In this document: one piece after another, positions 1 through 17,406 of the stretch
How positions within the stretch are numbered: position 1 is the stretch's first letter
Layout of the letters: each line of letters starts with the position of its first letter
Assembly: GCA_041662125.1 (NCBI GenBank)
Contig: JBAZTA010000002.1
Coordinates: forward strand, 140,154 to 204,153
Length of the DNA: 64,000 bases
Reading direction: 5' to 3'
Source: Candidatus Omnitrophota bacterium
GTDB lineage: Bacteria; Omnitrophota; Gorgyraeia; Gygaellales; Profunditerraquicolaceae
Made by a program: the position numbers and the translations under genes
Notes under the pieces: model-generated
Told to the model about the DNA's origin: nothing
Seen by the model: only the letters and a program-made list of their open reading frames with translations
Databases searched by the model: none

Positions 1-30
1 GAACCCGATTTTACCATAAATGGGTTTAAG

Positions 31-3000: not shown

Positions 3001-6000
3001 TACGCTAAGTCAGCGGATGAGGTCATGGCCTGCGCGTTGCCGCACCGGAAAGATCATTCGTTTGACCTGCTTTCGGCAGAAGGGCTCTTGCGGGAAGCTT
3101 CTCAAAATAAAATAGACGCGCTCGCTATTGGCCCCGGGCTTATCGTGAAAGAAGAACAGTCCCATGAAATTATGTACCGGTTATTAAGAAATATCCAGGT
3201 TCCTCTGGTTTTGGATGCCGGCGCTCTTAATGCTTTGGCGGGCAAGGCTTCAATTTTACGCAATGCCTGGGGCAGGACGGTCATTACGCCGCATATTGTT
3301 GAAATGGCGCGTTTGAGCGGTATACCTGTGGCAGAAATAATGTCGCGTCGTATTGATGTTGCCAGGGAGTTTGCTTGTGCGTACGGGACAGTGGTGGTGC
3401 TCAAGGGCGATGAAAACGATCGCACGCTTGTCGCATGCCCGGATGGAAGCGTCTATAGTAATTCTACCGGAAATAAATATATGGCAAAAGCCGGGATGGG
3501 GGATGTGCTTACCGGAATTATTGTCAGTTTTATCGGACAAGGTTTGTCTTCCCGTGAAGCAGCCGTATTGGGAGTCTATGTGCACGGGTTGGCAGCAGAT
3601 ATGGTTGTAAGCATCCAGAAGAGAAAAAGAGGGCTTCTCCCGACCCATGTGATAGAACAACTCTCCTTTGCCATCGATAGCCTCTGGGAGCATCGGGAAT
3701 CTTTTGTGCACCGTGATAAGGCCGTGCAGATCACGCCTCATGAGTTCAGAAGGATCGCCGCGGTTTATGGGCTGGAAATCGATAGTGATTCGCTTGATTT
3801 TCAAGGATTGAATAATAAGGTCGCCATACTCGATACGCATAATAAAGGCAAGGTCGTCATTAAGAAATCAGTCTGGGATTTAAAAGGCACGCTGTGGGAG
3901 CAAGAGCTTTTCAATAATTTAGCCAACAGGCAATTGCCTGAAATCATATATACGGAAGAAGGCAATGCCGCATATGTGGAAGCAGATGCTATCTTTACCG
4001 TGTATCGATTTGATTCTTTGGGAAGAATTTATGCATACGAAGAATTGACCGCGGAAATGTTTAAAAGTTTGGCTGAGTTTTTGGCCTGGCTGCATGTTTC
4101 TACCATGGATGGAAGAGTGTTGCATGTGCGAGGGGAAAGGATCACCGATCCTGTGGTTAAGTTCGCAGGCGTTGATGATCGTATGCTGAAATTAGACGAA
4201 GCATACCAGCGTTTTATTGCGAAAAACCCTGCCGGGTGGAACTTCGGGGAGCGTCTTTTTGTAGAGCATCAGCCTTTCTTTAAAGAGCAGATAGCTCTTG
4301 CAATACGTCATTTGGCAGGGATATATGAGCGCCTGCCGCGCGCTGTAATTCATGGGGATTTTCGCGCGGAAAACGTGACCATATCCGGTGATCATATTAG
4401 TAAGGTTCTTGACTGGGAAATTGCCAGAGAAGAAGTAAGGGTTTACGATTTGATCCGCAGCCTTTTCTATGACCTGCATAAATCCGGCGCGGAATTCAAT
4501 ATGGATGAGCTAAAAATCTGGGTGATCCTGTATCAGAAAGCAGCAGAGAAGTTCGGATACCCTTTAACGAGGGAAGAAATAATGATTATTCCTGAAATGC
4601 TGCGGCTGAAATTTATACAGCAGTTTAGTTGGCTGGTGCGATGGAATACCATTGAACGCCTTGAACAAGATCAAAATGAAAGACGGTTTTTTGAAAATTT
4701 GATAAAGGCTGCAAAAGTATTGGATGAGCAGGATTGGCAGAAGTTTTTTGCGGATGTTTTATCCGTGAGCAGGTGGGATCCCCGGAACTGCCTGGAAGAA
4801 TATGATTTCGCCCGGAAGAAAATTAATGAGGTAAACGGTAATATTGAGCATGCGGCTGTTTTGGTTGCGCAATACCGGCAAATAAAGAAACAAGATCGTC
4901 CAATTAAAATAAGCGTTTTTGTCCCTACCGCAAACTGCCTGCATAATGCTCATCAACGCCTCATTGAAGTTGCTCAAGATATACGCTTGCCGGGAGGGGA
5001 TCGTTTTGACGAAACAATAGTATTGCTGGGGACCAAACACGCTGAAAAAGAGGTAAAAGGCATGTCGCTTGAGGATAGGATCCTTACGGTCAAGGCTGTT
5101 TTTGATGAACACAAGGCAGAAGGTACGGCTGGAATCGATAAATTATTTTTAGTCAACACTGGCTGGTATTTGGAGATGGTAGTAGCCTTAAAAGCATATT
5201 ACCGGGAAAACTATTTCCAGGAAATCGAAGTTTATTTTATTATTGGAAAAGATTCGATGCAATCAACGCTTGCAAGTGAATTTGGGAAACTGTTGGAAGA
5301 AAGCTATTTTGTGGTAATGGACAGGCAGGGTTCCCGGATCGAAGATACGCTTGAATATAAAGAATTAGTTAAAGAAAAAGATAAAATCCTTACCCTGCAA
5401 TTTATCCCGAAGCCGGAAGAAGCCGATTTATCTTCGTCTAAGATTCGTCAGATGGTTAAGGATGGATTGTCTGTCGGGCGATTGGTTCCCCTGGCTGTTA
5501 ACGCTTTTATTATTGAGACGGGCGTATATCGTGATAGGGAAATGTATGAAGAGCGCCTGGTAAGGCTGGAGAAGATGCTTGAAGGTAGAAGATTGTTAGC
5601 TTCGTCTTCACCCATTACTTTTAAAGATGTAAATATCCTGGGTGTGGAAGAAGAGAAGTTGGGAATACTGCCGCTTATGTTCTTAAAGCAGAATAAAGGA
5701 AATTATCGGTTCGGTTACCAAATTTCAAATGGGCATGGAAGATATTGGGAAGTCAGGCAGCAGAAGACAGTGCGGTATATAGGTAAAGATATAAGGAGTT
5801 TATTTAAGTCTATAGCGGTTAGGCAGGATATTGAACAGTTCGACGCGGCAGGTAATCGAGAGGAGAAGATCGTGATTGTTTTGCCTACGGTTGGCGATCC
5901 TCTATACAAGCAATGGCTTCAGTCGCAGGTGCAAAGCCTGGGGAATCACTATAGGCTTACCTTTGTAGTTAACCTTAGTTTAAAGGATACTCTTGGCCTG

Positions 6001-9000
6001 AATACCACAAGAATGGGATGGCATTTAGGGAAGATATCGTATGTGCATATTTCTCATCAGGAGATCTATAAGCTGGAATTTCAAAATAGGAATTTGGTCA
6101 GGCCGACCGAATCTTTATATGAATATTTCAAATATCCCTATAGCCGTTATTTAGGAAATAAAGTTACTCAGGAAAATATAATTGACCTGGGGATAGGCGA
6201 GATTTCGATAGTGAGTGCTTTACATAAGGCAATAGAGCCTGTTGCCGATAAGAGGGAGATAGATTTGTTGCGCGATATTATTAAAACAGGCGAGTTTGAG
6301 CAAGTTTATTATATGTTTTCTTATTTATTGGATACCGGTAAGGATGATTATCAATTTCTGGCAAAGCTATACGTATTCTTTGATTATGAGGATTTCTTAG
6401 AGCGTTTTGGAGAGAGAAAAGCGAAAATCCTTCATTCACTCTATTCTGATTATCTTGAAGCTCGCTGGTCCAAGTCCAGCAGCGCGATGCTTACCCGTCG
6501 CCAGTTTATAACGGTCTTAGCAGGGAGTGTGTTATTCGCTGACGTCAGGAATGCCTTTGCCCAAAAGATTATGAAAGGTCTGGAGTTGGGAGAAATAATG
6601 CAAAAAGAGTTTAAAGACTTGGCTTTTGCGGAAGCCGAATATTTAAATTATACCTTTGGGCTTTTTAGTGTCAGTAGAACAGTCCAGGAAAGGATCAAAG
6701 TCATTGCTCCTCTCTATGCTTCCCGGGAAAGGCTCAATTTTGTTAAGGCGGACAATGTTGCCCGGCTGGCAGCTTCTTTAGGATACTATTTTGATGGAAG
6801 AGTCCCTTCTGTTACTATAGCGCTGAACAATCCGCAAACCAAACAGTATTCTTATTTGATTGTGTTCCAGAGCGATCTGTTCGGACAAAATCAGAATCAT
6901 TTCCCGGGGGTGTTGGCGCATGAATTATTTGGGCATGTTTATGACTTTGAAGCAAATCCCCATAAATACAACAATGATATCGCCAAAGCGCTTTCTTTAA
7001 AGAAATATGTTTTGATTTCCGAAGAGTTCGCATATGCTACTGCAGAGGCTATTCTCCAGGAAATCATCGTTAAGTTGAAACAAAAACATGCACAGCTGCC
7101 AAAAGAGCAGAAAATAGCATCATTGGCCGTAATAGAGATATTTGAAGCGGATCTGGCGCAGCATAAAGAAGCTCACCGCTATTGGAAACAAAAAGCATCT
7201 TCGCCGTTTAGCTGTCAACCGCTCATAGTATCTGCCGTCTCGCCTGTAGAAGCTTTCATGCAATTGATGAGTGGAATGCATAAGAAGAAGATAATGCCTT
7301 ACTATGGCAGTGATAATGCTGGTTGGGAAGAGTTTGTGAAGGCTGTAAAGGCGCTCAGAAAAGAGAAAGATATTGATGCTACGGTCATCAGCGGGCCGGA
7401 TTTAGACTGTGATTCTTTTGAGGCGTTCTACGAGTCTATAGGTTATGTTCCTTCTGCAATGTCATTTTTATTAGGAAAGAACGGTAAGATAACTAAAACC
7501 GAAAGAGAAAAAGAATTCCTGCGTTATTGCATAGGCAATATTTATCAGCATGTATCGAAAGGGATAGGATTGATTCTACGGTATGAAACGGCATTAGAAG
7601 GCGGCAGATGCGCAATAATCAGCCTTTCTGATAATGGTGACGGGTTTATTCATGGAGATAGCCAACGGCTGGTGCCTATTAGCGAAGCAATAAGATTTGG
7701 CAAGCGTTTCAGTTTTGGGGCTGGTGGTCATGCGGGCAGAGGATTGCCACTTGCATTGATCCAAGCGGATATATCTGTGATTATTACTCCTCAAGAGGCC
7801 GCAATTATACATCCCAGAAGACGAAAACCCGGTGATACCGGTATGCGAATACTACAGAGCGTTAAGGTGGCCAAAGGCGCATGGCGAGGCACATGTATAT
7901 GCGGCGTTATCTATACGGGGGAAAGTAAAGGCTCCTGCTCGCGGGAGGTGATTTGCACATGGGAAAAATTATTATCTTTTTTAAGTGTTGCCTCCTCGCC
8001 GCTTAGTAAGCCACACAACCAAACCGGTCCTGATTGTTCGCAGATTACCCTCAAGGCTTTATTGTCCGAATTAGATTCTCTACAGATGGCATTAGGATGT
8101 GAAACCTCGTTTAATATCATTCGTATTACGTCTTGGTTGACTTTGCCGCTTGAGGAATTTGTTGCCAACGCTGCACTCCTCGTGAGTAAGATTAAAGGAT
8201 GGGAAGACAAGAAAAAGATTGCTGTCCTTTGGGCCCTACGGGAAGTTGCAGGTGAATTTCCAAGAAGCGATATCGCGCAAGCAAAGAAGTATCTGCAAGG
8301 GAAAACGGAAAAATGCTTAATTGATTTAAGCGATGAGTCCTTGGAGGCGTTGAACAGTGAACTTTCAAGCTCTGGGTGGATTTTTATAAGAAACAGAAAT
8401 CTCGGCAATACTGTAACAGAATTAATGCCTCAGGCTCAATGTATGGTAGATAAGGCAATCAGACAGTTGATAGGAGATGATGAATATGAACGGCTTTTTG
8501 GATTCTTAGGCAGATACGATGATATTGTTGCGAAGTCGCGTAGAGTAATCACCTTGAGTCAAGAGATTCAACAAATTTTAAGGAGCATATCACAACCCTG
8601 TTCTTCGCCGCAGGCGCAAGGGCAAAATGTAAGTATTGATGAGGACAGATTAGAGTCTTTTATGAGCAGCTTGATTTGTTCAGGAAAATCGTTTAGCCTC
8701 GTGACTTCGCCAAAAGTAATTGAACAAATGAATATCTGGGATTTCCCCTATCTCAACACGCTCTTAGAGCAGCATATTCAGGTAGGGCAGGTACAGCAGG
8801 ATTACCTAGAGCCGCACTACCTAAAAATAAAAAAGCAGCAGCCGGAGTTGATTATAGGGATTGGTATGGGATCGGTGATCGAATGGGCCAAGTTATTAGG
8901 CCATAAATTAGATAAAAATGTGATCGTTATCCCTAGCGCCGTCTCCACAAATGCTATGTTTACCCGCTCTGTTATCATAGGGAATGGTGCAGGTGATTCT

Positions 9001-12000
9001 TTTACGAGGACGACTATCCCGGCAAAAGCGCCGTCAAAAGTTATTATAGATACGAGGTTCGCAAGTTTAAACCGTCGGGGAAATATCAGCGGTGCCGGTA
9101 ATTTATTTGGCAATAGGATTGATTTAGTTGATTGGGATCTGGCAATAAAGTACGGGCAGGAAAGCGATACTCAACAAGAACACAGGGATAGAGTTCGCCG
9201 GCAGATGAATTTAATCGAAGATATACTTTGGCATGACGATGAGGCTATCAGCGCCAATACCAGACATGGGGTTAGCCAACTGACGGAACTTAATTGTTGG
9301 CTTTCAGGTTTGACGCAGGAAGTTAATCCCCATGGCCCTGATGGCACAAGTATAAGGATCCTTTTCGATTCAATAAAGAGGCAATCGCCCAATATAAAAC
9401 TTATTCACGGGGAAGGAGTAGCAATAGCTACGATACTCATGGCTTATTTGTATAACTTAGATTATAGAATGTTTATTACTGATGCGCAGCGTTTGGGGTT
9501 ACCTGTGGCTATCAAGGATATTGGCCTTACTCGGGAATCTTTGGTTCTTAGTTTGCTAACGGCTAAGCCTGACAAGCGGGGGTTCTCGTGGTTTAACAAT
9601 AATTCTATACAGGAAGAACAAGCAAGGCGGGTCATTGATGCGGTATTCGGCGCAAATTTAACATCAGGGAAAGTAGGTAAGATACGACCGCATTATTCTT
9701 GGAGAGGCAGGGAAGAGGATATCCCTGCGTTAAGTGGAGGGCCTCATCAGCGCGCCGAAATAATTGCTGGTTACCTTAGTGAACAAGGTATTTATTCTGA
9801 CCCTAAAGCGGAGTTACCGTCAAGGCAAGAATTAATGAAAATCATCAATACTGCAAGCTTAGCAATGAATTGTAATAGCGAAAAAGGCATGTTAGGGCGG
9901 AATATAAATGAGATTACGGCTGAATGTTTATTCAGGGAGGGGCATGTTATTTTTATTCCTAAATTAGATGAGTTTGCTTGCATTATGAGCGATGTTCAAG
10001 GGGACCTCCTTTCTCTTAATAGCCTGTTAGAGCAAGCAGGGTTTGTTCATAACATGGAAAGCGGGAAAAAGAACATAAGATTGATAGCACTGGGTGATTA
10101 TATTGACGGCGGTATTAATAATCTGGGAGTCTTAGTGAGGCTGATGGAATTAAAAATAAAATATCCCGAGCATGTTATCCTGTTAAGGGGTAATCACGAA
10201 TCGCGGAATGACCGGGAAGCTGTTAAACATTTCCCTGCTTATGAAAGGGATAGATTCAGGCGCCTTAACCAGAGCAAAATGTTAAGAGAGTTAGGGTATG
10301 TTAAATCGCAATCATATCTTATTTTTGAATTAATCGCGCGATACGGAGCGCAAGACGCAGATAAAATCTACGGCTCTCTCCTCAATTTGTTTAAACAATT
10401 GCCTACGCTTGCGGTAACCGCCACAAGGTTGGTTATGGCCCATGGCAATGCCCCTAACGAAGACAACGTGAGCCTTATCGACATTGCATATAATGATAAA
10501 ATCGCCAAGCAAATACGGGTTAATTCTTTCTGGGGCGATAAAGATTCTCCTAATGAACGTTTAACCGGCAGTTCGTATAAGATTAGAAAAAAAGGCTTTG
10601 AGAATTTTTTGCGGCGCATCGGGGGAAAGATATTCATTGGCGGGCATGTGTCTAAGGAGTCAGGCAACATTCAATGCGACGGCAAAATGATTGTGATCCA
10701 TTCGCAGAATAATCTGGCCAGCCGCGACAGCGGTTACTATTTCTTCCGTCAGGGCATTGGTAAAGGTTGTTATATCTGGCTCCCGTTAAATATTTCTTAT
10801 GATTTGTTCCCGCAGGAAGCTTTAAGGATCATGCCGTCGTCTAGTAATTCTTTAGCATTAACCTGCGCCTCACCGCTGGCTTTAAGAAATAACGAAAATG
10901 AAATCACCTGTTTTTCTATCTACGAAACTATTATGCCTAGTTTTACTCTTAATTTGGATCAATTTAAACATAATCTAAAGAGGGCATCTTTAGGAAAATT
11001 TATTTTTGTAAAACAGCTTAGCCATAACACCTGGCTAATGCGTGGCATTGACAATAAAAAGCGGTTGACCATAAAGATAATTACTCCGAGTATGACAAAA
11101 AAGGCTGGCTGCTTAAGGAATATTAAAGATACTAAGAGAATTATAAATATTATAGACAAATGGGATCCTCCCCATAAAATGCTTGCTCAAGGATTTTACA
11201 TAACAGATCGCGAAGGGAGTTTAGCGGTAGTTTCTCGTTATGTCATAGGCGTTGATCTGCAAGAATTCTTGACAGAAGGTCGTAGAAAATTTAATAATCC
11301 GGAATTATATGTTAAGTGGAGTGTGCAAGTTGCAAAAAAAATATTGCCGCAGGTGCGTGATTCGGTTAGTTATTTATATAGGGAGATACCTGGCCTGAAA
11401 GTATTTGATGCTGCGCCGTCAAATCTTATTGTTTCTAGTCAAGGTGTTACTTGGCTGTTAGACGTATTTATGCTTAATACAAGGAATAACGACGAAACCA
11501 CTGCTGTAATTGAAGTTAATCATATGATTGATTTGATAGCCAGAATTATAGCAAAAGAATTTGAACCATTTAAAATTGAAAAGATGATAGAAGCATATTT
11601 GATTTATGGCTATCCGTATCTAGACGATATTTGTGATTTAATTAAAAAGCAATGTGCCTCTCCGCTTGCGCAGAATGTCTTGAATGTATGGTCGCAATTG
11701 AAGCGTTTCCTGATACCTGAGAACAAAATAAGCAGATATCAGCCACTCGAAATTAAGCTCGATGGAATAGTAGGGCAAAATATTGATAATCCTTTGGTGT
11801 ATCATCAAAGGCTGGAATTTTTGCGGGCGGAGAGGATAAATTTATTAAGAAATCTAATATGCTACGAGTTAATAGTTGAACTTGGCCATGGAGGGAATCC
11901 AAACCTTTATGAAGATATCCGCAGAGTAGGTTTCCAGGGTTCTTATTCCGCGTTAGATTACTTTCCCTTTAATCAAAGGTGTCCTCTTAAAGGATTCCCC

Positions 12001-15000
12001 CATGTAGAAATTGACGTAAGAAACGCAGGCGCCGTAAACGAAATAATTGGTAAGTTACCAGCAGCAATAGTTTCAAATAATTTCTTGAGGCATTTAGGTG
12101 CGCACTATGCGCAAGGAATATGCTCACGAGATAATGCTTATATGGTGGCAGAGCTTTTACACAGTTACAACGCAGATCTACACATGCATGTAGGAGGGAT
12201 CCCTTCGGATGAAGCGGAGAGAAATAGCCGTTTTGCTGTACAAGACCAGATGGAATATATAAATTACATGAATCAAATACCGGAAGCATTAATAAAAAAA
12301 GGGTGGAGAGTTATCTTCCTGGAACATCATGGATATCGCGACTGGGTGTTTATCCGAGACGGCAGCTATATCAGTAGTGTCATGGCTGAATGGTTTAAGA
12401 ATATAATAAGTAGTGAGGATAAAATCAAGATAAGTCCCAATGCCTGTGGCGGCACTGCAGCCTCGCCGCTGGCAGAAAGGCTGCGTCACCATGCATTTGT
12501 CAGGCAGTTAGGGGGGGAAGCCATTACTTTTCTTGTTTCTTTATTGAAAAGGCCATCCAGCGAATTCGTAGCAGACGACCTGTTATCTGCCTTTAAAACT
12601 TTTAATAGTAATAAAAAAATAAAAATAATTAAATTAAGCGGAGAACCTTCCGAGTTAGCTGGAAAGCTTGAAGAATATTTAAATGGCAGTAGCGATACAT
12701 TGGTTCTCGTCGAACTTAAATTGGAATTCTTATATCATATTGAATATGCAGTGATAATTGATGAGGCGCGTTACATAAAATCACAATTAAACAAAATTAC
12801 GAAAGGGAGTGTGAGTAATTATGATTTTGAATTTGTCTTTTCAGCGGCGGTTTTCGAAAGATATGTTAATTTTGACTATATTTCTTTAGGCCGCACCCCG
12901 GAGGTTGTTGCGCGATTACGGGAAAAACATTTGATGTCAAAGACGTTTAAGAAAATTGTGGTTTTCCTTGAAAACAGGCACTTGAATAACAAGGTCAGGT
13001 TTTCTATAGCCAAAGGAAACTCTTTAATGGAGCACTGGGCAAAGAAATACTTCAGCGCAGAATGCATAGTGCCTAGTGAAAATCTTCAATACTGGGAAGG
13101 AATTATCGGAGCCCGCGCCTTATCCTCATCGCCGCTGATTTTTAGTCGAAACTCTTCATCTTCAATAGGGTTAAATAGGGGCAGCCCCAGGATTATACAG
13201 AAAAGAATTATGCCGAATATATTATCTTATAGGGCTGTATTTACGCTTCTGACTCCTTGTATTTGGACATTGGCTGGGTTAGCTTTGCTGCCTTATTCTT
13301 TTGCCAGGCAATTAGTTCTCATTCCTGTGGCTGTAGTCATTGTTAGTTATAGCGCAACTGCTTCTTTATTCTGGCTTATCAGAATATTCCGCTATCGAAA
13401 TTTGTCCTGGAAGGCAAAAGAAAGCTTTGCCAGGGTATTTATGCATCTGCGTATTTTTAACATATTCTTAGGCGCCGCTTTATTATTGCTTATAGGTTTA
13501 AATATTGCTGATGCCAAGCTTCCCAAATGCCTGCATTTAACCGGTACTGTGCAGTGGGGTTTTTCATTGTGGGCTGTTGTTGATATAGTACAGCATTTTA
13601 TTTATAAAATGGTCGGCGGAGTAAGAGGTTTACGCGATGAGATGCTTTGGAATATTGTATTATCAGTTTTAGGTAAACCTTATGATTTCAGCCGTCCAAA
13701 GGGAGGGACTGTTGGAAGAGAGTTGTCAAAATTAATCGAACGGATAAATAAACGTGAAATTTGTGCTTCTTCGCCGCTGGACGGCCAAGCAATTTTATTA
13801 AAAACCTGGCAGCAGGTAGCCAATGTTGGTGATTTAGACCAGATAAGGGCAATGGATATATTTGGATTTGCCCGCGCGTTAGGCGCTAAGGAAATGCAAC
13901 CGAAAAGATTTGATTCACTCCGTAGCCTGTGTGGACTATCCGTGACCCCGGCTTTGGTATGCATTTCAATTGAGGCTTGGCATCGTATCAGGGGAGATAG
14001 GATTGCCGAAGGGTTGAAAGAAAAACATTATGACATCCTTATTAGAAATCTATCACGCATACCGCAGATAGATGGCCCAGGACTGTATTATCGTAAAAAG
14101 GGAGTTCAAAACTATCCCAAGAGCGCTTTTGTGCATGAACTCCTGGAATTCAACGTTATAAATTCAGGATTAATAAACAGTAACTTTTATAATTTCTTAG
14201 GAAACTCCCATCAGATAGTGTTAGAAGGAGAATTGCGATTTGCCAGGCTTATCGGCATCCATGAATTCAGCCTAAGCCTTGAAAACATGCAGAAAAGGAT
14301 AGATACGTTAAAGGACGTTATATCTCAGTATTCTATTATTGAAGCAAAAAGAGAAATACTACGCATTAGCCTGGAGATTAAAAGTTTAATAAACAGTTCA
14401 TATACAGATGATTTTTTGAAGTCTTCTTTAGAGTTATGGCATCAAGCAAGGAAGACGGCCTCTTCCCCGCTGGCGTATGGAGTAGGGTTACGCAGCCTTT
14501 TCTTAGGGAAAAAGCTCCCTCTGCGGCATGAGCGCTTTGCCTATTGCCAGATAAAAGAAATTTACCGGAATTTATATCCGGAATTATCCGCTCAAGCTGT
14601 AGAAAGATTTCTTTCTCGCATCAGTTTGGGTGAATTTTCAATGGTTCATTTCTTTGGAAGGATACCGCTGGTGGGAATTATGTTTTATGTCTTTTCGCGC
14701 GTTGTGGTATGTTTGGTAGCTGCATTGTTTGCCGCGGGGGTTTTTTCTGTGGTGCAAACGTGCGGGATCGGGCAAGCCCTGTCGCATCTGGATATCGATC
14801 TTTTGTCATTTAAGGAGAAATTCATTTTCGGGATTATTGCCTCAACCGCGCTCTTAAAACCCTTAACCAGTGATGTCCGCGAATTCGCCAAGACCCTCCG
14901 TAAGGCCAAAGGCATATGCATTATCGACCCTGTTGGAACAGCGACTATTTTATTCAGGCCTCAGCGTAAAGCCAAACTGTCATTTGATCTTTCACCAGTT

Positions 15001-17406
15001 TTGCCCCATGAATTAGCTCATGCGTTGTTGCCTGAAGATTCAGGGCCTCTGTATACCGAGGGGATCCCTGAATTATTAACAGCGATAAGCCTGCATGAAC
15101 AAGGGGCTAGCGGCCGCTATGAAACCCAGGTAACCAGAGTAACACGGCTGCTTATGCCGGATTTTTCCCTTTCTGAATTAGAGTTTAGTTTGAGCGAGAT
15201 CGCGATCCGGTATTATATCAAACATAAAAAATTCGGAGAATGGTCGTATGCTTTTGGAGAAGCGATGTTTGTCGCTCTCCAGTATTATTTTCCTGATAAT
15301 ACTTTCGCGCATTATAAGGCCGCGCGTCTTATGATCGAAGGGATGGGGATTGAAAATGCTATCCGTGTCGCTCAAGGTGGAGAAGTAGTTCCTGATGAAC
15401 AAGATGAAAATGCAAAACTTCTCCACATGTTAGCATGCAAAGACCGTGTGCAGCGTTTGCTTGAAGAGAAAAACATCCGCAGGAACATAAAAGGGGACGG
15501 TTCTATTTTTCAAAGTTCTTCATCGTTGGCGCTTCGGGTACAGGTGCCCGATTGTGTTTGCAAACGGTACAATCTTAACTCTGCACCAGGTGCGAAGTTG
15601 TATTTGCTTCAGGAGAGGATTCCTCGTTGTGCCTCGTCTTTCTTAGGTTGTTTTGTCGCGACACGGACAAGTAGTTCCCCTCTCTATAAGGTGATAAACG
15701 GCGGAAATATTGATGAGGACAGCCTTAGGGGAATCGCCCGCATTGATCAAGAAGTACAGAATTCGTCTTATTACACAGTTTTTCCAAGAGATAACGGCCT
15801 TATCTGGAGAATAGCGGCAGATCCGGCGAATACTATTTATCTTAATGTCCTGGAAAATAAAATTTCCGGGTATCTTATATCCGGGCCGTTTGCTGGTTAT
15901 CCTGCTTATCTTTATTATATGGCAGTTGTGCCTCTATATCCTAAAGGGTATCTCGAAACCGGCTTATTGCGGGAACATATCCAGGCGATGCAAGAGAGCG
16001 CTGTTAATCAGATAACGCTGCATGTTAATGAGGATAGTTATGCTGGAGAATTTTATTACAAATTATATCAGAAGGAATTACCTATGCAGGTTATCGGCGT
16101 TGGATTTAAACGGGAGCGCAATGATATAAGCCATGAAGGCGTTATATACCTGCCTGGCGAAGCCGGCCCCTATAAAAGAGTGCAGATATTCTTAAAGAAA
16201 AATTTAGCTGCTTCACCGATACATGATCATGATCTGTATAGCCAGGATACGGCATTAAAGAAGATGTATTCATCTCTATTCTTAAACAGGATAACCGGCC
16301 CGTGGTTGATGAAGAGATTCTTAAGGAAAGGTGATCCGGAGAGATTAGGCAGGTTTTTATTATCGCTTGATCTATGTGTGGGATGGCGGCAGATATCGAC
16401 TAAACAATTTGTTCGGACTAATAAAGGGATTATGAAAGCTGTTGAATTTGCCCTGCAGAAAGATTTACTCACCAAGTATAGTTTTAACAACTATGGGGAA
16501 GTCGAGGAGGTATTACAGAGAGGGCACATTATTATTCTTAACGGTTCTATCCCCGCATTGATCGATACCGTAAGTATCCTTAACCGAAAGAAATGGCTCA
16601 GGGCGTATTATTTGGCAAATGGCCATAGGATTGATTTGGATAGTTTAATGTCTTCAGCAGGGGCGATTGAGCTGCTTTTATCCGCAAACGTTTGCAGTTT
16701 AGGCCAGGCATCGGCGTCTCCGATTATCTCCCCGGTTGGATCAAAAGACGTGGAGTCTTTTTTAGAAGAAGGGCGCATTTCTTTGAATAATGTAAAAGGC
16801 GGGCCGGCGATAGTCATCGATTCTGATCTAACGATATTTTTAAAAAAACCATTTGTAAAGATTGGTGATATTAAGTGGCACCTTTCTGATACGTACGCGG
16901 AGAAAACAAAGTACCTGACGATAGATGAAATAACGATTAAGGAAACCCTTGATGGGCAGGATCTCCAGGGCGGTGGTATCGGAGAAACTGTTTTTGTTTT
17001 CCTCGCCGCCTATCTATTATATTTAGGGCAGCAATATGAAGTTGATTTTGAATTACGGGTTGATCGAGTAGGGGATATACGGCTGTTAAATATTGTAAAA
17101 AGTATTTTTGCCCAAAAGTATCTTTTTGTCGATAATCAACGTATGAGCCAATCTTCTGGAGAGATACATCTCATCCGCCCGGGCAGCACAAAATTAATAC
17201 AACCGGTTGATATCCGCGTAGTTGTTTCTGCGCAAAGCATTATTTCTCAGCATATTGCTGTGAGCAGGAGCGCTTCTTCAGCGATAGAAGAAAAAAAAGC
17301 TTTTGAAGAGTCAGAGCGTGGGAGTGCCATGAAATTTACCATTACGCATACACAAAATCAAAAAGAAAGGCAGGTGAGGTTACGATGGAAGAGCGCAGGC
17401 ACCTAA
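31..17406 (+). CDS. giant multidomain protein (at least 5791 aa; the frame is still open at nt 1, so it may start upstream of the window)
   Basis: An ORF of 17.4 kb with no stop is far too long to arise by chance at this base composition. There is no in-frame stop in nt 1-30 and no good SD before the ATG at 31. The product contains many recognisable catalytic motifs, listed below as sub-features. Confidence 0.9.
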   Translation: MSSKGELSADEVALQDLKQGIIRIKREYHNFFQLFNTMLRAVYFKNKLGFVFDARLESIINGRNWQERLINLITIQIPYFFDRVFHLKFEPWVTWMLFKSHVKKTEIKLKGVLSKGEKTSAGSPVSNVLGALAINSQGYAQTFSRWIPGLDIVSPVDTENITGFVQWLNWHGFNQYHDGFDFAAYRSADGLCALGLPAYTPVRAVAKGTIVSAGIEQMFRGEKMEELMYYFQIVIEHGEEDSGLTSTYLHVTPKLSMCREVIKGQVIGYVYNDNYERNTQGVYLNHLHFRINNGFRDQRNLVDPAVILPELNRLYCQPQGAARFKVEGIDGEPVISLPSSKKLLGVRYEPLTHRSASAVSAMLMLSETCNPERVFILAGAARAPPAVSSSSPMIKAMHGRSKTGIFVSAFNPLTTAMEVMMEEARKQYGLDKIILMLTANPLYTKAYGTTLEQRKEMLQLFVESNPQYSYQVINKSLYVDILEALKKQLHHDDLYVILGMRSFERILSWDYGSNQEALPALFEGHHFLIANEKDLRFEDFKNNSLFCRTYAGNLHPLHIDEEYQKHSSAEVRVFVKEKASLAGLVPDEIFQYIQQKGIYQGFAEYAQGRVALSGQTFKEYLLTMMASCKRIDGKGKVMERVKEFIRERLSQGGKVSILSIGCGQAIDLVVLKEAFPDNPYIEYLGIDINPDIVDEARLVASDMHFIVRDIIEQDISDLKRRFDVVMVTNTLHEVYSYYGRPTRRVEERINHELGLSYVSQALGNITQMLKAAGHLYVYDGADTARDEQSDQIVIRFKKRNIKDAFYTFAHEFLPKEVPYEQVNGDEYMVRISKKDFMHFVCEYQYVGDQRWDIEKEESWQYFSVEEYVTVLSGLGFTVSVDNFSPERQLKLWSEDIEIISENVDFPRIVLFIEASLDKKRKIQAIDEQDAAFLVPEVKSNDHKGSRGRVLIAGGSIGKYLGALQLASKAALQSGSGMVYAGVLKYLWSMFYAKSADEVMACALPHRKDHSFDLLSAEGLLREASQNKIDALAIGPGLIVKEEQSHEIMYRLLRNIQVPLVLDAGALNALAGKASILRNAWGRTVITPHIVEMARLSGIPVAEIMSRRIDVAREFACAYGTVVVLKGDENDRTLVACPDGSVYSNSTGNKYMAKAGMGDVLTGIIVSFIGQGLSSREAAVLGVYVHGLAADMVVSIQKRKRGLLPTHVIEQLSFAIDSLWEHRESFVHRDKAVQITPHEFRRIAAVYGLEIDSDSLDFQGLNNKVAILDTHNKGKVVIKKSVWDLKGTLWEQELFNNLANRQLPEIIYTEEGNAAYVEADAIFTVYRFDSLGRIYAYEELTAEMFKSLAEFLAWLHVSTMDGRVLHVRGERITDPVVKFAGVDDRMLKLDEAYQRFIAKNPAGWNFGERLFVEHQPFFKEQIALAIRHLAGIYERLPRAVIHGDFRAENVTISGDHISKVLDWEIAREEVRVYDLIRSLFYDLHKSGAEFNMDELKIWVILYQKAAEKFGYPLTREEIMIIPEMLRLKFIQQFSWLVRWNTIERLEQDQNERRFFENLIKAAKVLDEQDWQKFFADVLSVSRWDPRNCLEEYDFARKKINEVNGNIEHAAVLVAQYRQIKKQDRPIKISVFVPTANCLHNAHQRLIEVAQDIRLPGGDRFDETIVLLGTKHAEKEVKGMSLEDRILTVKAVFDEHKAEGTAGIDKLFLVNTGWYLEMVVALKAYYRENYFQEIEVYFIIGKDSMQSTLASEFGKLLEESYFVVMDRQGSRIEDTLEYKELVKEKDKILTLQFIPKPEEADLSSSKIRQMVKDGLSVGRLVPLAVNAFIIETGVYRDREMYEERLVRLEKMLEGRRLLASSSPITFKDVNILGVEEEKLGILPLMFLKQNKGNYRFGYQISNGHGRYWEVRQQKTVRYIGKDIRSLFKSIAVRQDIEQFDAAGNREEKIVIVLPTVGDPLYKQWLQSQVQSLGNHYRLTFVVNLSLKDTLGLNTTRMGWHLGKISYVHISHQEIYKLEFQNRNLVRPTESLYEYFKYPYSRYLGNKVTQENIIDLGIGEISIVSALHKAIEPVADKREIDLLRDIIKTGEFEQVYYMFSYLLDTGKDDYQFLAKLYVFFDYEDFLERFGERKAKILHSLYSDYLEARWSKSSSAMLTRRQFITVLAGSVLFADVRNAFAQKIMKGLELGEIMQKEFKDLAFAEAEYLNYTFGLFSVSRTVQERIKVIAPLYASRERLNFVKADNVARLAASLGYYFDGRVPSVTIALNNPQTKQYSYLIVFQSDLFGQNQNHFPGVLAHELFGHVYDFEANPHKYNNDIAKALSLKKYVLISEEFAYATAEAILQEIIVKLKQKHAQLPKEQKIASLAVIEIFEADLAQHKEAHRYWKQKASSPFSCQPLIVSAVSPVEAFMQLMSGMHKKKIMPYYGSDNAGWEEFVKAVKALRKEKDIDATVISGPDLDCDSFEAFYESIGYVPSAMSFLLGKNGKITKTEREKEFLRYCIGNIYQHVSKGIGLILRYETALEGGRCAIISLSDNGDGFIHGDSQRLVPISEAIRFGKRFSFGAGGHAGRGLPLALIQADISVIITPQEAAIIHPRRRKPGDTGMRILQSVKVAKGAWRGTCICGVIYTGESKGSCSREVICTWEKLLSFLSVASSPLSKPHNQTGPDCSQITLKALLSELDSLQMALGCETSFNIIRITSWLTLPLEEFVANAALLVSKIKGWEDKKKIAVLWALREVAGEFPRSDIAQAKKYLQGKTEKCLIDLSDESLEALNSELSSSGWIFIRNRNLGNTVTELMPQAQCMVDKAIRQLIGDDEYERLFGFLGRYDDIVAKSRRVITLSQEIQQILRSISQPCSSPQAQGQNVSIDEDRLESFMSSLICSGKSFSLVTSPKVIEQMNIWDFPYLNTLLEQHIQVGQVQQDYLEPHYLKIKKQQPELIIGIGMGSVIEWAKLLGHKLDKNVIVIPSAVSTNAMFTRSVIIGNGAGDSFTRTTIPAKAPSKVIIDTRFASLNRRGNISGAGNLFGNRIDLVDWDLAIKYGQESDTQQEHRDRVRRQMNLIEDILWHDDEAISANTRHGVSQLTELNCWLSGLTQEVNPHGPDGTSIRILFDSIKRQSPNIKLIHGEGVAIATILMAYLYNLDYRMFITDAQRLGLPVAIKDIGLTRESLVLSLLTAKPDKRGFSWFNNNSIQEEQARRVIDAVFGANLTSGKVGKIRPHYSWRGREEDIPALSGGPHQRAEIIAGYLSEQGIYSDPKAELPSRQELMKIINTASLAMNCNSEKGMLGRNINEITAECLFREGHVIFIPKLDEFACIMSDVQGDLLSLNSLLEQAGFVHNMESGKKNIRLIALGDYIDGGINNLGVLVRLMELKIKYPEHVILLRGNHESRNDREAVKHFPAYERDRFRRLNQSKMLRELGYVKSQSYLIFELIARYGAQDADKIYGSLLNLFKQLPTLAVTATRLVMAHGNAPNEDNVSLIDIAYNDKIAKQIRVNSFWGDKDSPNERLTGSSYKIRKKGFENFLRRIGGKIFIGGHVSKESGNIQCDGKMIVIHSQNNLASRDSGYYFFRQGIGKGCYIWLPLNISYDLFPQEALRIMPSSSNSLALTCASPLALRNNENEITCFSIYETIMPSFTLNLDQFKHNLKRASLGKFIFVKQLSHNTWLMRGIDNKKRLTIKIITPSMTKKAGCLRNIKDTKRIINIIDKWDPPHKMLAQGFYITDREGSLAVVSRYVIGVDLQEFLTEGRRKFNNPELYVKWSVQVAKKILPQVRDSVSYLYREIPGLKVFDAAPSNLIVSSQGVTWLLDVFMLNTRNNDETTAVIEVNHMIDLIARIIAKEFEPFKIEKMIEAYLIYGYPYLDDICDLIKKQCASPLAQNVLNVWSQLKRFLIPENKISRYQPLEIKLDGIVGQNIDNPLVYHQRLEFLRAERINLLRNLICYELIVELGHGGNPNLYEDIRRVGFQGSYSALDYFPFNQRCPLKGFPHVEIDVRNAGAVNEIIGKLPAAIVSNNFLRHLGAHYAQGICSRDNAYMVAELLHSYNADLHMHVGGIPSDEAERNSRFAVQDQMEYINYMNQIPEALIKKGWRVIFLEHHGYRDWVFIRDGSYISSVMAEWFKNIISSEDKIKISPNACGGTAASPLAERLRHHAFVRQLGGEAITFLVSLLKRPSSEFVADDLLSAFKTFNSNKKIKIIKLSGEPSELAGKLEEYLNGSSDTLVLVELKLEFLYHIEYAVIIDEARYIKSQLNKITKGSVSNYDFEFVFSAAVFERYVNFDYISLGRTPEVVARLREKHLMSKTFKKIVVFLENRHLNNKVRFSIAKGNSLMEHWAKKYFSAECIVPSENLQYWEGIIGARALSSSPLIFSRNSSSSIGLNRGSPRIIQKRIMPNILSYRAVFTLLTPCIWTLAGLALLPYSFARQLVLIPVAVVIVSYSATASLFWLIRIFRYRNLSWKAKESFARVFMHLRIFNIFLGAALLLLIGLNIADAKLPKCLHLTGTVQWGFSLWAVVDIVQHFIYKMVGGVRGLRDEMLWNIVLSVLGKPYDFSRPKGGTVGRELSKLIERINKREICASSPLDGQAILLKTWQQVANVGDLDQIRAMDIFGFARALGAKEMQPKRFDSLRSLCGLSVTPALVCISIEAWHRIRGDRIAEGLKEKHYDILIRNLSRIPQIDGPGLYYRKKGVQNYPKSAFVHELLEFNVINSGLINSNFYNFLGNSHQIVLEGELRFARLIGIHEFSLSLENMQKRIDTLKDVISQYSIIEAKREILRISLEIKSLINSSYTDDFLKSSLELWHQARKTASSPLAYGVGLRSLFLGKKLPLRHERFAYCQIKEIYRNLYPELSAQAVERFLSRISLGEFSMVHFFGRIPLVGIMFYVFSRVVVCLVAALFAAGVFSVVQTCGIGQALSHLDIDLLSFKEKFIFGIIASTALLKPLTSDVREFAKTLRKAKGICIIDPVGTATILFRPQRKAKLSFDLSPVLPHELAHALLPEDSGPLYTEGIPELLTAISLHEQGASGRYETQVTRVTRLLMPDFSLSELEFSLSEIAIRYYIKHKKFGEWSYAFGEAMFVALQYYFPDNTFAHYKAARLMIEGMGIENAIRVAQGGEVVPDEQDENAKLLHMLACKDRVQRLLEEKNIRRNIKGDGSIFQSSSSLALRVQVPDCVCKRYNLNSAPGAKLYLLQERIPRCASSFLGCFVATRTSSSPLYKVINGGNIDEDSLRGIARIDQEVQNSSYYTVFPRDNGLIWRIAADPANTIYLNVLENKISGYLISGPFAGYPAYLYYMAVVPLYPKGYLETGLLREHIQAMQESAVNQITLHVNEDSYAGEFYYKLYQKELPMQVIGVGFKRERNDISHEGVIYLPGEAGPYKRVQIFLKKNLAASPIHDHDLYSQDTALKKMYSSLFLNRITGPWLMKRFLRKGDPERLGRFLLSLDLCVGWRQISTKQFVRTNKGIMKAVEFALQKDLLTKYSFNNYGEVEEVLQRGHIIILNGSIPALIDTVSILNRKKWLRAYYLANGHRIDLDSLMSSAGAIELLLSANVCSLGQASASPIISPVGSKDVESFLEEGRISLNNVKGGPAIVIDSDLTIFLKKPFVKIGDIKWHLSDTYAEKTKYLTIDEITIKETLDGQDLQGGGIGETVFVFLAAYLLYLGQQYEVDFELRVDRVGDIRLLNIVKSIFAQKYLFVDNQRMSQSSGEIHLIRPGSTKLIQPVDIRVVVSAQSIISQHIAVSRSASSAIEEKKAFEESERGSAMKFTITHTQNQKERQVRLRWKSAGT
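430..960 (+). other. domain in the giant ORF: peptidase M23 (LytM-like)
   Basis: HDGFDF (HxxxD) lies at about nt 559 and HLHFRI (HxH) at about nt 886. These are the characteristic zinc ligands of M23 peptidases. Confidence 0.6.
1230..1830 (+). other. domain in the giant ORF: NadD/cytidylyltransferase-like nucleotidyltransferase fold (copy 1, degenerate)
   Basis: GIFVSAFNPLTTAM resembles the GxFxPxHxxH box, with His replaced. The C-terminal ...SSAEVRVFV... resembles the SxxxIR motif. Confidence 0.35.
1900..2600 (+). other. domain in the giant ORF: class I SAM-dependent methyltransferase
   Basis: Motif I is ILSIGCGQAIDL, motif II is YLGIDINPDIVDEAR, and a later motif is FDVVMVTNTLHEV. Confidence 0.65.
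2840..3640 (+). other. domain in the giant ORF: NAD(P)H-hydrate dehydratase (YjeF C-terminal / Nnr2-like carbohydrate-kinase fold)
   Basis: The family signatures GSRGRVLIAGGSIGKYLGALQLA, VITPHIVEMARL, VVVLKG..T and GMGDVLTGII occur in the canonical order. Confidence 0.75.
3900..4700 (+). other. domain in the giant ORF: aminoglycoside-phosphotransferase/choline-kinase-like (APH) kinase
   Basis: VIHGDFRAENV is the Brenner HGDxxxxN catalytic loop. VLDWE is the metal-binding DxE. Both lie at nt 4345-4420. Confidence 0.7.
4900..5530 (+). other. domain in the giant ORF: NadD/cytidylyltransferase-like nucleotidyltransferase fold (copy 2)
   Basis: ISVFVPTANCLHNAHQRL resembles the (H/T)xGH box. The SSSKIRQMV tail resembles the SxxxIR motif. 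Confidence 0.45.
8840..8970 (+). other. domain in the giant ORF: DHQ-synthase/Fe-alcohol-dehydrogenase-like nucleotide-binding segment
   Basis: GIGMGSVIEWAKLLG followed by VIVIPSAVSTNAMFT resembles the GGGSxxDxAK and PTTxxTGSE blocks of the DHQS/glycerol dehydrogenase superfamily. Confidence 0.35.
9950..10750 (+). other. domain in the giant ORF: PPP-family (calcineurin-like) metallophosphatase, possibly divergent
   Basis: GDLLS stands in for GDxHG, GDYIDGG for GDxVDRG, and LLRGNHE is a perfect GNHE motif. The first-motif His and the Arg of motif 2 are substituted. Confidence 0.55.
13200..13620 (+). other. domain in the giant ORF: cluster of about 4 predicted transmembrane helices, with another at about 14640-14770
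   Basis: Long hydrophobic runs occur at VFTLLTPCIWTLAGLALLPY, LVLIPVAVVIVSYSATASLFWLI, IFLGAALLLLIGLNIA and FSLWAVVDIVQHFIY. A later run is LVGIMFYVFSRVVVCLVAALFAAGVF. Confidence 0.5.

What the first reader, a model, noticed from the sequence alone, without database searches (positions are those of the whole stretch)
7190..16730. Recurrent [C/A][A/S]-S-S-P-L motif punctuating the giant protein every about 200-270 residues
Seen directly in translation: KASSPF (nt about 7195), VASSPLSK (7990), PCSSPQ (8603), TCASPLAL (10864), QCASPLAQ (11656) and TAASPLAER (12457). The run continues with ALSSSPLI (13118), CASSPLDG (13762), TASSPLAYG (14458), TSSSPLYK (15670), LAASPIHD (16210) and QASASPIISP (16700). 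Degenerate copies are SSSSLAL (about 15512) and CASSFLG (about 15625), and earlier copies are SSSSPM (1192) and ASSSPI (5600). From 10.8 kb on the spacing is strikingly regular at about 650-800 nt, yet the sequence between motifs is not obviously repetitive. A conserved short linear motif at module boundaries suggests a processing site (the protein carries M23 and HExxH protease motifs), a proline-directed Ser phosphorylation or glycosylation site (the protein carries its own kinase and phosphatase domains), or a conserved inter-domain hinge.
Basis: seen in the sequence. Interest (0 to 1): 0.7.

Follow-up and report, generated by a model that had tools for sequence, protein, structure and literature searches.

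The report
Junction motif in giant multi-enzyme protein
A five-residue tag (small-small-Ser-Pro-Leu) marks nearly every boundary between enzyme modules in a bacterial protein of at least 5,791 residues, recurs at matching boundaries in other giant proteins, and gives the first concrete candidate for where such proteins might be cut, paused or recombined.

Summary
The giant ORF (nt 31-17406; frame open from nt 1) holds 14 copies of [A/S/C][A/S]-S-P-[L/I/F/M/Q]. Shuffles predict 0.1-0.3, and no other ORF in the window has one.

Every copy lies outside recognised domains. The stretches between copies are evolutionary modules. Four of them have free-standing or differently embedded homologues that span the whole inter-motif segment. 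An AlphaFold model of one module has its confident fold bounded by the two flanking copies, with the first helix starting at the Pro.

The motif sits at homologous junctions in other giant proteins from metagenomes (a locus encoding ≥6,888 aa, a 6,713-aa protein, and two shorter ones), although the neighbouring modules differ.

Unexpectedly, codons are conserved too. Ser-Pro is TCG-CCG in 17 of 33 motif copies against 4 of 60 other Ser-Pro pairs.

The host is an Omnitrophota-like bacterium, and the protein fits the recently described "multi-enzyme" giant class.

Function is not shown. My best guess (about 0.35) is a proteolytic processing site of a bacterial polyprotein. Rivals are a standard connector kept through module shuffling, a ribosome pause, and a Ser modification site. 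I found no report of this motif in the papers searched.

The parts
1..17406 (+). Giant ORF. First ATG is at nt 31, giving 5,791 aa, but the frame is open from nt 1, so the true start may lie upstream of the window.
391..405 (+). Loose motif copy AGSPV (aa 121), N-terminal to the M23 domain
1195..1209 (+). Motif copy SSSPM (aa 389), 9 aa before the NMNAT domain and after M23
5602..5616 (+). Motif copy SSSPI (aa 1858), after the second cytidylyltransferase-like domain
7195..7209 (+). Motif copy ASSPF (aa 2389), codons GCA TCT TCG CCG TTT
7990..8004 (+). Motif copy ASSPL (aa 2654). It follows module 4; the P0013 homologue of that module is likewise followed by SSSPL.
8599..8613 (+). Motif copy CSSPQ (aa 2857), 23 aa before the glycerol-1-phosphate-dehydrogenase-like domain
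10864..10878 (+). Motif copy CASPL (aa 3612), after the PPP-type metallophosphatase
11653..11667 (+). Motif copy CASPL (aa 3875), between the kinase-like module 7 and the methyltransferase-like module 8
12457..12471 (+). Motif copy AASPL (aa 4143). This is the end of module 8; homologue P0001 has CGGSSPV at the same place.
13123..13137 (+). Motif copy SSSPL (aa 4365). This is the end of module 9; homologue P0016 has HGSSPL at the same place.
13765..13779 (+). Motif copy ASSPL (aa 4579), N-terminal edge of module 11. The first helix of the AlphaFold model starts at the Pro.
13777..14457 (+). Module 11 (aa 4583-4809). A conserved helical domain with HExxE...H...VLEGELRF, found in 23 other (mostly long) proteins. 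No fold match in the PDB.
14458..14472 (+). Motif copy ASSPL (aa 4810), C-terminal edge of module 11. L045 has VASPV and P0013 has NSPII at the same position. The complete genes P0019 and P0014 end at the position of the second Ser.
15514..15528 (+). Degenerate copy SSSSL (AGT TCT TCA TCG TTG). It reads like the consensus with the Pro codon missing.
15628..15645 (+). Degenerate copy CASSFL, 14 aa upstream of the next full copy
15670..15684 (+). Motif copy SSSPL (aa 5214), 26 aa before the GNAT-like region
16207..16221 (+). Motif copy AASPI (aa 5393)
16711..16725 (+). Motif copy SASPI (aa 5561), followed at once by ISPV
613..909 (+). Peptidase M23 domain (aa 195-293), a candidate cis protease
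15007..15021 (+). HELAH (aa 4993-4997), the only true HExxH. It lies downstream of a TM helix and has a weak sub-threshold SprT-like hit.
1222..5451 (+). Motif-free block of five domains (NMNAT, SAM methyltransferase, NAD(P)HX dehydratase, APH kinase, cytidylyltransferase-like; aa 398-1807)
8668..10650 (+). Motif-free block of two domains (glycerol-1-phosphate-dehydrogenase-like aa 2880-3203; PPP-type metallophosphatase aa 3318-3540)
13234..13509 (+). Transmembrane helices of module 10 (aa 4402-4493)

Best explanation
Shown: the motif x-[S/A/C/G]-[A/S]-S-P-[L/I/V]-(A) is a standard junction between independently folding, evolutionarily mobile enzyme modules. It occurs in a family of giant multi-enzyme proteins of an Omnitrophota-like lineage. 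The upstream module ends at ...Ser-Ser and the next one starts with a helix at Pro-Leu. The motif stays at the junction even when the neighbouring modules differ.

Inferred (about 0.35): the motif is the recognition site of an endopeptidase that cuts the giant precursor into single enzymes or small blocks of enzymes, making it a bacterial polyprotein. The endopeptidase could be one of the protein's own peptidase-like modules (M23 at the N-terminus, or the HExxH module near aa 4993) or an enzyme encoded elsewhere. On this reading the two motif-free blocks (aa 393-1857 and 2861-3611) would be released as multi-domain enzymes. Which bond is cut, and by what, is unknown. The position of natural C-termini in homologues points to the Ser|Pro bond or close to it.
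For: There are 14 copies against 0.1-0.3 expected, and none elsewhere in the window. None lies inside a recognised domain (P=0.005). The same holds for 13 loose copies in the independent giant ORF L045.

The inter-motif segments 8, 9, 10 and 11 each have homologues covering almost the whole segment, some as stand-alone proteins of 186-311 aa.

The AlphaFold model of aa 4553-4854 (pLDDT 80.7) has its confident fold running from Pro4582 to Ser4812. Confidence falls on the outer side of both motif copies.

The motif is conserved at homologous junctions with unrelated neighbours. GIANT ARKT-ASSPL matches L045 ARKA-VASPV and P0013 AAQT-NSPII. Module 8 is followed by AASPL in GIANT and SSPV/ASSPL in P0001. 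Module 9 is followed by SSSPL in GIANT and GSSPL in P0016. A P-loop module is preceded by AASPV in L045 and GSSPL in P0016.

The complete genes P0019 and P0014 stop exactly where GIANT has Ser|Pro.

Peptidase-like modules are present in cis. Double sites 8-14 aa apart occur, as in processed polyproteins.

The literature on Omnitrophota giant proteins proposes cleavage but states that cleavage points are unknown.
Against: There is no direct evidence of cleavage. M23 peptidases are known for Gly-X bonds in peptidoglycan, not Ser-Pro (own knowledge). The HExxH module could not be classified, and module 11 matches no protease fold.

In the model the linker is very short, helix-SS-P-helix, which is less accessible than typical polyprotein sites.

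A protease site does not explain why the codons TCG-CCG(-CTG) are conserved.

Other giant proteins that carry homologous modules lack the motif, so any protease must be lineage-specific.
Confidence: 0.35

Rival explanations
1. Standard connector kept through module shuffling. The motif is an uncleaved helix-stop and helix-start adaptor: Ser as N-cap, Pro as first helix residue. It insulates the folding of neighbouring modules. Its coding sequence (about 12-15 nt, GCY TCG CCG CTG) is also the place where cassettes are joined in frame, so it is inherited or regenerated at every junction.
For: In the AlphaFold model the helix starts at the Pro right after the last helix of the previous module, in both copies. 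Modules are clearly shuffled between proteins while the junction motif stays. The nucleotide identity of copies exceeds what the peptides require (P=5e-5). TCGCCG occurs in 17/33 motif copies against 4/60 other Ser-Pro pairs, pooled over four diverged sequences. Other giant proteins carry their own repeated linkers, for example three copies of about 55 aa at 68-90% nt identity in P0008. The syntenic locus in the nearest genome holds an unrelated large ORF.
Against: Fifteen bases is too short for ordinary homologous recombination, and the flanks show no nucleotide conservation. Only about half of the copies carry the exact TCGCCG. Many sequences can cap or break a helix, so an intrinsic structural role does not explain why Ser-Pro is kept across proteins whose modules are only 25-50% identical.
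Confidence: 0.25
2. Programmed ribosome pause. The Ser-Pro-Leu peptide, read through particular codons (TCG CCG CTG, all G-ending), slows elongation at each module boundary. This would give time for co-translational folding or membrane insertion of a very long chain.
For: This is the only reading in which the ribosome is the common factor and codon identity matters. Supporting data are the codon bias within the motif and its reproduction in L043, L042 and L045. Pro in the A site is a slow acceptor and is central to known bacterial arrest peptides (own knowledge).
Against: A pause exactly at the boundary leaves the last 30-40 residues of the finished module in the exit tunnel. Known folding pauses lie further downstream (own knowledge). 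CCG is the commonest Pro codon in the other window genes sampled and second to CCT in the giant gene (34-40%), so it is not a rare codon. There is no excess mRNA structure around the sites. A single Ser-Pro is not a known strong stall.
Confidence: 0.18
3. Post-translational modification site. The invariant Ser before Pro is phosphorylated by a kinase module and reset by the PPP-type phosphatase module of the same protein, or is O-glycosylated. This would regulate or protect the inter-module hinges.
For: Kinase-type modules are present (APH E=2e-10; protein-kinase-like E=0.02) along with a PPP-family phosphatase. The motif is rich in small residues plus Ser-Pro, like bacterial O-glycosylation regions (own knowledge). 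It lies at exposed domain edges.
Against: APH-family kinases mostly act on small molecules, and the protein-kinase hit is below threshold. No glycosyltransferase module was detected in the protein. No copy occurs in any other protein of the window, including envelope proteins. The codon bias is not explained.
Confidence: 0.1

Closest known systems
MARTX toxins: autoprocessing by the cysteine protease domain at small-Leu-small sites in unstructured segments between effector domains (PMC2900308)
   Same: A giant modular protein (up to about 5,200 aa) with unrelated enzymatic modules. A short recurring site sits between modules, with an aliphatic residue flanked by small ones. The module repertoire is shuffled between relatives.
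   Different: The Pfam and NCBIfam scans reported no RTX-repeat or C80 cysteine-protease (CPD) family. Here Ser-Pro is the fixed core. The modules look like housekeeping-type small-molecule enzymes rather than known toxins. Cleavage is not shown.
Viral polyproteins with short conserved cleavage sites at every protein junction (established knowledge)
   Same: A short motif at each junction, peptidase-like domains in cis, and modules equivalent to single proteins.
   Different: This is a cellular chromosome gene next to mnmE and folE. No protease of matching specificity was identified, and processing is untested.
Omnitrophota giant proteins, 'multi-enzyme metabolic cluster' class (bioRxiv 10.64898/2026.06.07.730766; West-Roberts et al. 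2023 bioRxiv 10.1101/2023.11.21.568195)
   Same: Many distinct enzyme families tile one polypeptide (methyltransferase, HATPase-like, GNAT, kinases), with TM helices. The sequence is unique even though some domains are shared. The closest housekeeping genes are in Omnitrophota MAGs.
   Different: Those catalogues start at 10,000 aa, and this ORF is at least 5,791 aa. Neither paper describes a junction motif. West-Roberts et al. state that cleavage points are unknown.
Demarcation motifs of polymorphic toxins (VENN in CdiA, PxxxxDPxGL in Rhs), where a conserved peptide and its coding DNA mark the point of module exchange (own knowledge)
   Same: A short conserved peptide at the border of exchangeable modules, with conservation that extends to the DNA.
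   Different: Those systems have one border per protein, with a toxin and immunity pair downstream. Here there are 14 or more borders and no toxin or immunity logic.
Ser/Thr N-cap with Pro at the first helix position (Richardson and Richardson helix-capping statistics; own knowledge)
   Same: In the model the helix begins at the Pro and the preceding Ser caps it.
   Different: A capping preference is generic and weak. It does not predict a five-residue motif repeated 14 times, nor conserved codons.

Membership tests
MARTX-type autoprocessing toxin | Glycine-rich RTX repeats at both ends | tested here: not met
   No RTX-repeat family appears among the Pfam or NCBIfam hits over the whole protein
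MARTX-type autoprocessing toxin | Inositol-hexakisphosphate-activated cysteine protease domain (Peptidase C80) | tested here: not met
   No C80 family appears in the Pfam results. Sequence search against the PDB gave only dehydrogenase and phosphatase matches.
MARTX-type autoprocessing toxin | Leu at P1 in unstructured inter-effector linkers | tested here: inconclusive
   Leu or Ile follows Ser-Pro in 11 of 14 copies, often followed by Ala. The scissile bond is unknown.
Polyprotein processed at a recurring site | The same short motif at the junctions of protein-sized units | tested here: met
Polyprotein processed at a recurring site | Protease encoded in cis or nearby with matching specificity | tested here: inconclusive
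   An M23 domain and one HExxH module are present. Their specificity is unknown, and M23 is not known to cut at Ser-Pro.
Polyprotein processed at a recurring site | Mature products observed | not testable with these tools
   This needs proteomics or expression experiments
Omnitrophota multi-enzyme giant proteins | Many different enzyme families on one polypeptide with no dominant repeat | tested here: met
   Nine distinct families were recognised, with no internal repeats
Omnitrophota multi-enzyme giant proteins | [quoted passage not shown] | tested here: met
   Hydrophobic helices at aa 4402-4493 and 4891-4909. This is a crude hydropathy scan only.
Omnitrophota multi-enzyme giant proteins | Host in phylum Omnitrophota | tested here: inconclusive
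   The best MnmE match (79%) is a MAG labelled Planctomycetales. The next matches (54-56%) are Omnitrophota MAGs. No rRNA or marker phylogeny was done.
Omnitrophota multi-enzyme giant proteins | Length of at least 10,000 aa (catalogue threshold) | tested here: inconclusive
   5,791 aa are visible, but the frame is open at the window's first base
Polymorphic-toxin demarcation motif (VENN / Rhs) | A single border before a C-terminal toxin, with an immunity gene downstream | tested here: not met
   There are 14 or more borders. The downstream gene encodes a PilZ protein, followed by mnmE.
Polyvalent proteins of phages and conjugative elements | Encoded on a mobile element | tested here: not met
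   The neighbours are chromosomal housekeeping genes (mnmE, folE, accA, fabF-like, AcrB). No phage or conjugation genes appear among the 20 neighbouring ORFs scanned with Pfam.

The most novel reading that the evidence does not exclude
The giant multi-enzyme proteins of this lineage are true bacterial polyproteins, assembled from interchangeable enzyme cassettes. The cassettes are joined by one universal adaptor whose coding sequence (about GCY-TCG-CCG-CTG) is itself under selection. The same 15 bases would then serve as the in-frame joining point for cassette exchange and, once translated, as the site where the chain is paused and/or cut into individual enzymes. That would be a gene-organisation strategy replacing operons in ultra-small bacteria.
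Probability: 0.2. Interest if true: 0.9.

Novelty: new variant of a known kind. Interest (0 to 1): 0.62.

Why it matters
Whether the giant proteins of Omnitrophota and related bacteria work as one chain or are cut into many products is an explicitly open question. Published work says cleavage points are unknown, which also blocks structure-based annotation.

A short motif that can be found by pattern search, coincides with true module borders, and recurs in independent giant proteins has two uses. It gives a practical rule for splitting these proteins for annotation. It also gives a precise target for proteomics (termini or modifications at ...SS|PL...) and for simple expression tests.

The added codon-level conservation is unusual for an inter-domain linker. 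It hints that translation or recombination acts at the same spot, which bears on how such genes are built and expressed.

Tried and rejected
1. Chance or composition is rejected. Composition and dipeptide-preserving shuffles give 0.1-0.3 expected copies against 14 observed.

2. A general property of this organism's proteins or linkers is rejected. There is no copy in any other ORF of the window, including the four-domain CheB-CheR-PAS fusion.

3. Tandem duplication of a linker-plus-domain unit is rejected. The protein has no internal similarity, and the modules have different folds and families.

4. A longer conserved DNA element is rejected. There is no nucleotide conservation within 30 nt on either side. 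TCNCCGCT is found outside the gene only at chance level.

5. An mRNA hairpin at junctions is rejected. Folding energies around the sites are no different from random sites.

6. A lipobox or signal-peptidase site was considered because Cys often precedes the motif. There is no hydrophobic h-region upstream, and Pro at +1 blocks signal peptidase I (own knowledge).

7. Close homologues were not found. Word-indexed searches with three parts of the protein found nothing. One 5,000-aa query timed out. Genome and metagenome scans with the protein itself found nothing. Exact-protein look-ups of two neighbouring genes were not on record.

8. A single-sequence AlphaFold run of aa 3560-4400 was unusable (pLDDT 33).

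10. The two HExxH-type modules could not be classified by PDB sequence search.

11. The syntenic large ORF in the nearest genome (L001) is unrelated. It has one motif copy and no Pfam hit.
Full report
**Context**

The window is a bacterial chromosome segment in which nearly all long ORFs lie on the + strand, with positive GC skew throughout. Nucleotides 31-17406 form one ORF of 5,791 aa. The frame is already open at nt 1 and no clear ribosome-binding site precedes the ATG, so the protein may be longer.

Downstream come a PilZ protein whose gene overlaps the end of the ORF by 22 nt, then mnmE, folE, chemotaxis and histidine-kinase genes, sulfatases, accA, an RND efflux pump and fatty-acid genes.

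The best MnmE match (79%) is a MAG labelled Planctomycetales. The next matches (54-56%) are Omnitrophota MAGs. I treat the host as Omnitrophota-like, but this is not settled.

**The observation**

The pattern [ASC][AS]SP[LIFMVQ] occurs 14 times in the giant protein.
- A composition shuffle expects 0.10 copies (maximum 2 in 2000).
- A shuffle that preserves all dipeptide counts expects 0.30 copies (maximum 2 in 1000).
- In an unbiased k-mer scan SSP, SSPL, ASSP, ASPLA and ASSPL rank among the most enriched words.
- No other six-frame ORF of at least 150 aa in the window has a copy.

A looser fifteenth copy, AGSPV, lies at aa 121. SSSSL is AGT TCT TCA TCG TTG, which is the consensus without its Pro codon. 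Spacing after 10.8 kb is 504-1212 nt, with five of eight gaps between 642 and 804 nt.

**Position relative to domains**

Pfam and NCBIfam recognise nine domains:

| Domain | Residues (aa) |
|---|---|
| Peptidase M23 | 195-293 |
| NMNAT | 398-600 |
| SAM methyltransferase | 645-779 |
| NAD(P)HX dehydratase | 919-1214 |
| APH kinase | 1282-1538 |
| Cytidylyltransferase-like | 1628-1807 |
| Glycerol-1-phosphate-dehydrogenase-like | 2880-3203 |
| Metallophosphatase | 3318-3540 |
| Weak GNAT | 5240-5344 |

By PDB sequence matches the metallophosphatase is of the PPP Ser/Thr-phosphatase type. No motif copy lies inside any domain. The chance of that for 14 random sites is 0.005. Several copies lie within 9-55 aa of a domain edge. 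Two multi-domain blocks (aa 393-1857 and 2861-3611) contain no copy, so the motif marks most domain borders but not all of them.

**Homologues**

Word-indexed searches found nothing, so the protein is sequence-unique. An exhaustive HMMER search with aa 3612-4811 found 37 proteins, ten of them between 2,545 and 6,713 aa.

Re-alignment showed that the hits fall on single inter-motif segments:
- Module 11 (aa 4583-4809) is covered from residue 2-9 to residue 224-227 of its 227 residues in the full-length matches among the 23 proteins hit.
- Modules 8, 9 and 10 each have homologues, including short proteins of 186-311 aa.

So a motif-to-motif stretch is one evolutionary unit that also exists as a separate gene. 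P0009, P0014 and P0019 were checked and are complete genes with stop codons. P0019 and P0014 both end nine residues after the conserved Trp of module 11. That is exactly where the giant protein has the second Ser of ASS|PL.

**Structure**

A single-sequence AlphaFold run was useless (pLDDT 33). With a 20-sequence alignment of module 11 plus flanks (A1) the model reached pLDDT 80.7 and pTM 0.76.
- Confidence is below 50 at residues 23-26 of the model and rises to 93 from residue 31.
- The first helix begins at Pro4582 (model residue 30).
- The last helix ends at residue 257, directly before Ala-Ser-Ser-Pro-Leu (residues 258-262).
- Confidence drops below 50 from residue 263.

Both copies therefore sit exactly on the edges of the folded unit. 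The fold itself matches nothing in the PDB. It carries conserved HExxE, His and VLEGELRF elements.

**The motif in other proteins**

- P0013 (6,713 aa) has 8 strict copies against 0.2-0.5 expected, and about 20 loose ones (SASPL, SSSPL, CASPL, CSSPQ, SASS[LA]) spaced 90-970 aa apart.
- A metagenome locus (L045, contig Ga0172371_10000459) is a single open frame over all 20,666 bases (at least 6,888 aa). It has a module 11 that is 50% identical to the window's. It holds 7 strict copies against 0.16 expected, or 13 loose copies.
- None of the L045 copies lies in its Pfam domains. One is 7 aa after a xylose-isomerase-like barrel and one is 30 aa before a glycogen-debranching domain.

Homologous junctions keep the motif although the neighbours differ:
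- After module 11: ARKT-ASSPL (window), ARKA-VASPV (L045), AAQT-NSPII (P0013).
- Before module 11: CASSPL (window) against CASAL (L045).
- After module 8: GGTAASPL (window) against CGGSSPV and then DGASSPL (P0001).
- After module 9: ALSSSPL (window) against NHGSSPL (P0016).
- After module 4: VASSPL (window) against ESSSPL (P0013).
- Before a P-loop module shared at 49% identity: AASPV (L045) against GSSPL (P0016).

Pooled over 42 copies the consensus is small, small/Ala/Ser, Ser, Pro, Leu/Ile/Val, then often Ala.

Most other long proteins that share modules lack the motif. Some have their own repeated linkers. P0008, for example, has three copies of about 55 aa at 68-90% nucleotide identity.

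**Nucleotide level**

This is a new observation. Within the 14 window copies:
- Pro is CCG in 11. CCG is 34% of Pro codons in the rest of the gene.
- Leu is CTN in 8 of 8. In the rest of the gene 52% of Leu codons are TTR.
- Ser is TCN in 25 of 28.

Keeping the peptides and drawing codons from the gene's usage gives a mean pairwise identity of 0.497 ± 0.017, against 0.60 observed (P=5e-5).

Ser-Pro is TCG-CCG in 6 of 14 motif copies, against 2 of 42 other Ser-Pro pairs in the window (P=2.5e-5). The same codons recur in the distant relatives:
- L043: 4 of 4.
- L042: 2 of 3.
- L045: 5 of 12.

Pooled, this is 17 of 33 against 4 of 60 (Fisher P=1.6e-6).

Because the surrounding modules are only 25-50% identical, shared ancestry cannot explain this. 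Flanks are not conserved and there is no excess RNA structure. I cannot explain this bias. It argues that translation or DNA-level events also act on the site.

**Interpretation**

What is shown is a conserved, lineage-specific junction motif between mobile enzyme modules of giant multi-enzyme proteins. Its function is inferred.

I rank endoproteolytic processing first (about 0.35). A short identical site at every protein-sized junction, preserved regardless of neighbours, is the signature of polyprotein sites. Peptidase-like modules are present. Natural termini of homologues coincide with the Ser|Pro bond. Published work already suspects cleavage of such proteins without knowing where.

Three things count against it. 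The linker is tight. No protease with fitting specificity was found. The codon bias is left unexplained.

The rivals are:
- An uncleaved standard connector retained or regenerated by cassette shuffling (0.25).
- A codon-dependent ribosome pause (0.18).
- Ser phosphorylation or glycosylation (0.10).

These readings are not mutually exclusive.

**Comparison with known systems**

The nearest functional analogy is MARTX autoprocessing at small-Leu-small sites between effector domains. The defining RTX repeats and C80 protease are absent from the family hits, so this protein is not a member. It fits the 'multi-enzyme' class of Omnitrophota giant proteins. Neither that study nor West-Roberts et al. 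mention a junction motif, and a further search found no such report.

I therefore class it as a new variant of a known kind (polyprotein or modular-protein junction signal), of moderate to high interest.

Noticed in passing
window 13777-14457 (aa 4583-4809): Module 11 is a conserved helical domain of about 230 aa (IGxLxxIRxMD...GPGIYY...HExxE...H...VLEGELRFA...SLxxW). It is present in 23 of the 37 retrieved proteins, usually in long multi-enzyme proteins. Its AlphaFold model is confident (pLDDT 80.7) but it has no convincing PDB fold or sequence match. It may be an uncharacterised metal-binding enzyme.
   Followed up: partly
L001:2-5299 (contig CAZPNW010000228.1): In the nearest genome (MnmE 79% identical) the same position, upstream of the PilZ gene and mnmE, holds a different large ORF of at least 1,765 aa. 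It has no blastp similarity to the window's protein, no Pfam hit, and only one motif copy. The locus seems hypervariable.
   Followed up: partly
L044:100-10743 (P0008, GCA_018896715.1): Another long multi-enzyme protein (3,547 aa) uses its own linker. A segment of about 55 aa (NPGxGSHGTFEKxEEAPVVTLARQTGAPIMR...RRLSPxYGTAD) is repeated three times between unrelated modules, at 68-90% nucleotide identity. Shorter repeated segments of their own also occur in P0007, P0020, P0012 and P0034.
   Followed up: partly
window 1-30: The giant reading frame has no stop between the first base of the window and the ATG at 31, and no obvious Shine-Dalgarno sequence precedes that ATG. The gene may start upstream, which would make the protein longer than 5,791 aa.
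   Followed up: no
window 17385-17406: The PilZ-domain gene (17385-18092) overlaps the last 22 nt of the giant ORF in another frame, which suggests translational coupling. L001 has the same gene order, with a homologous 235-aa ORF.
   Followed up: no
The module around it (aa 1862-2388) has no family or PDB match.
   Followed up: partly
window 15628-15684; window 16711-16737; P0013 aa 2019-2033; L045 protein aa 1508-1523; P0001 aa 260-284: Motif copies often come in pairs 4-24 aa apart (CASSFL...SSSPL; SASPI-ISPV; GSSPLDRENRSSPIV; VASPLRQGPGSCASPI; GSSPV...ASSPL). These are either double sites or remnants of lost modules.
   Followed up: no
window 26117-29230: One ORF of 1,037 aa fuses CheB methylesterase, CheR methyltransferase and two PAS domains. 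It is followed by a PAS-HisKA_2 histidine kinase. This multi-domain protein has no junction motif.
   Followed up: no
window 1-64000: Almost all ORFs over 150 aa are on the + strand and GC skew is positive in every 2-kb bin. With mnmE present, the window may lie just downstream of the replication origin on the leading strand.
   Followed up: no
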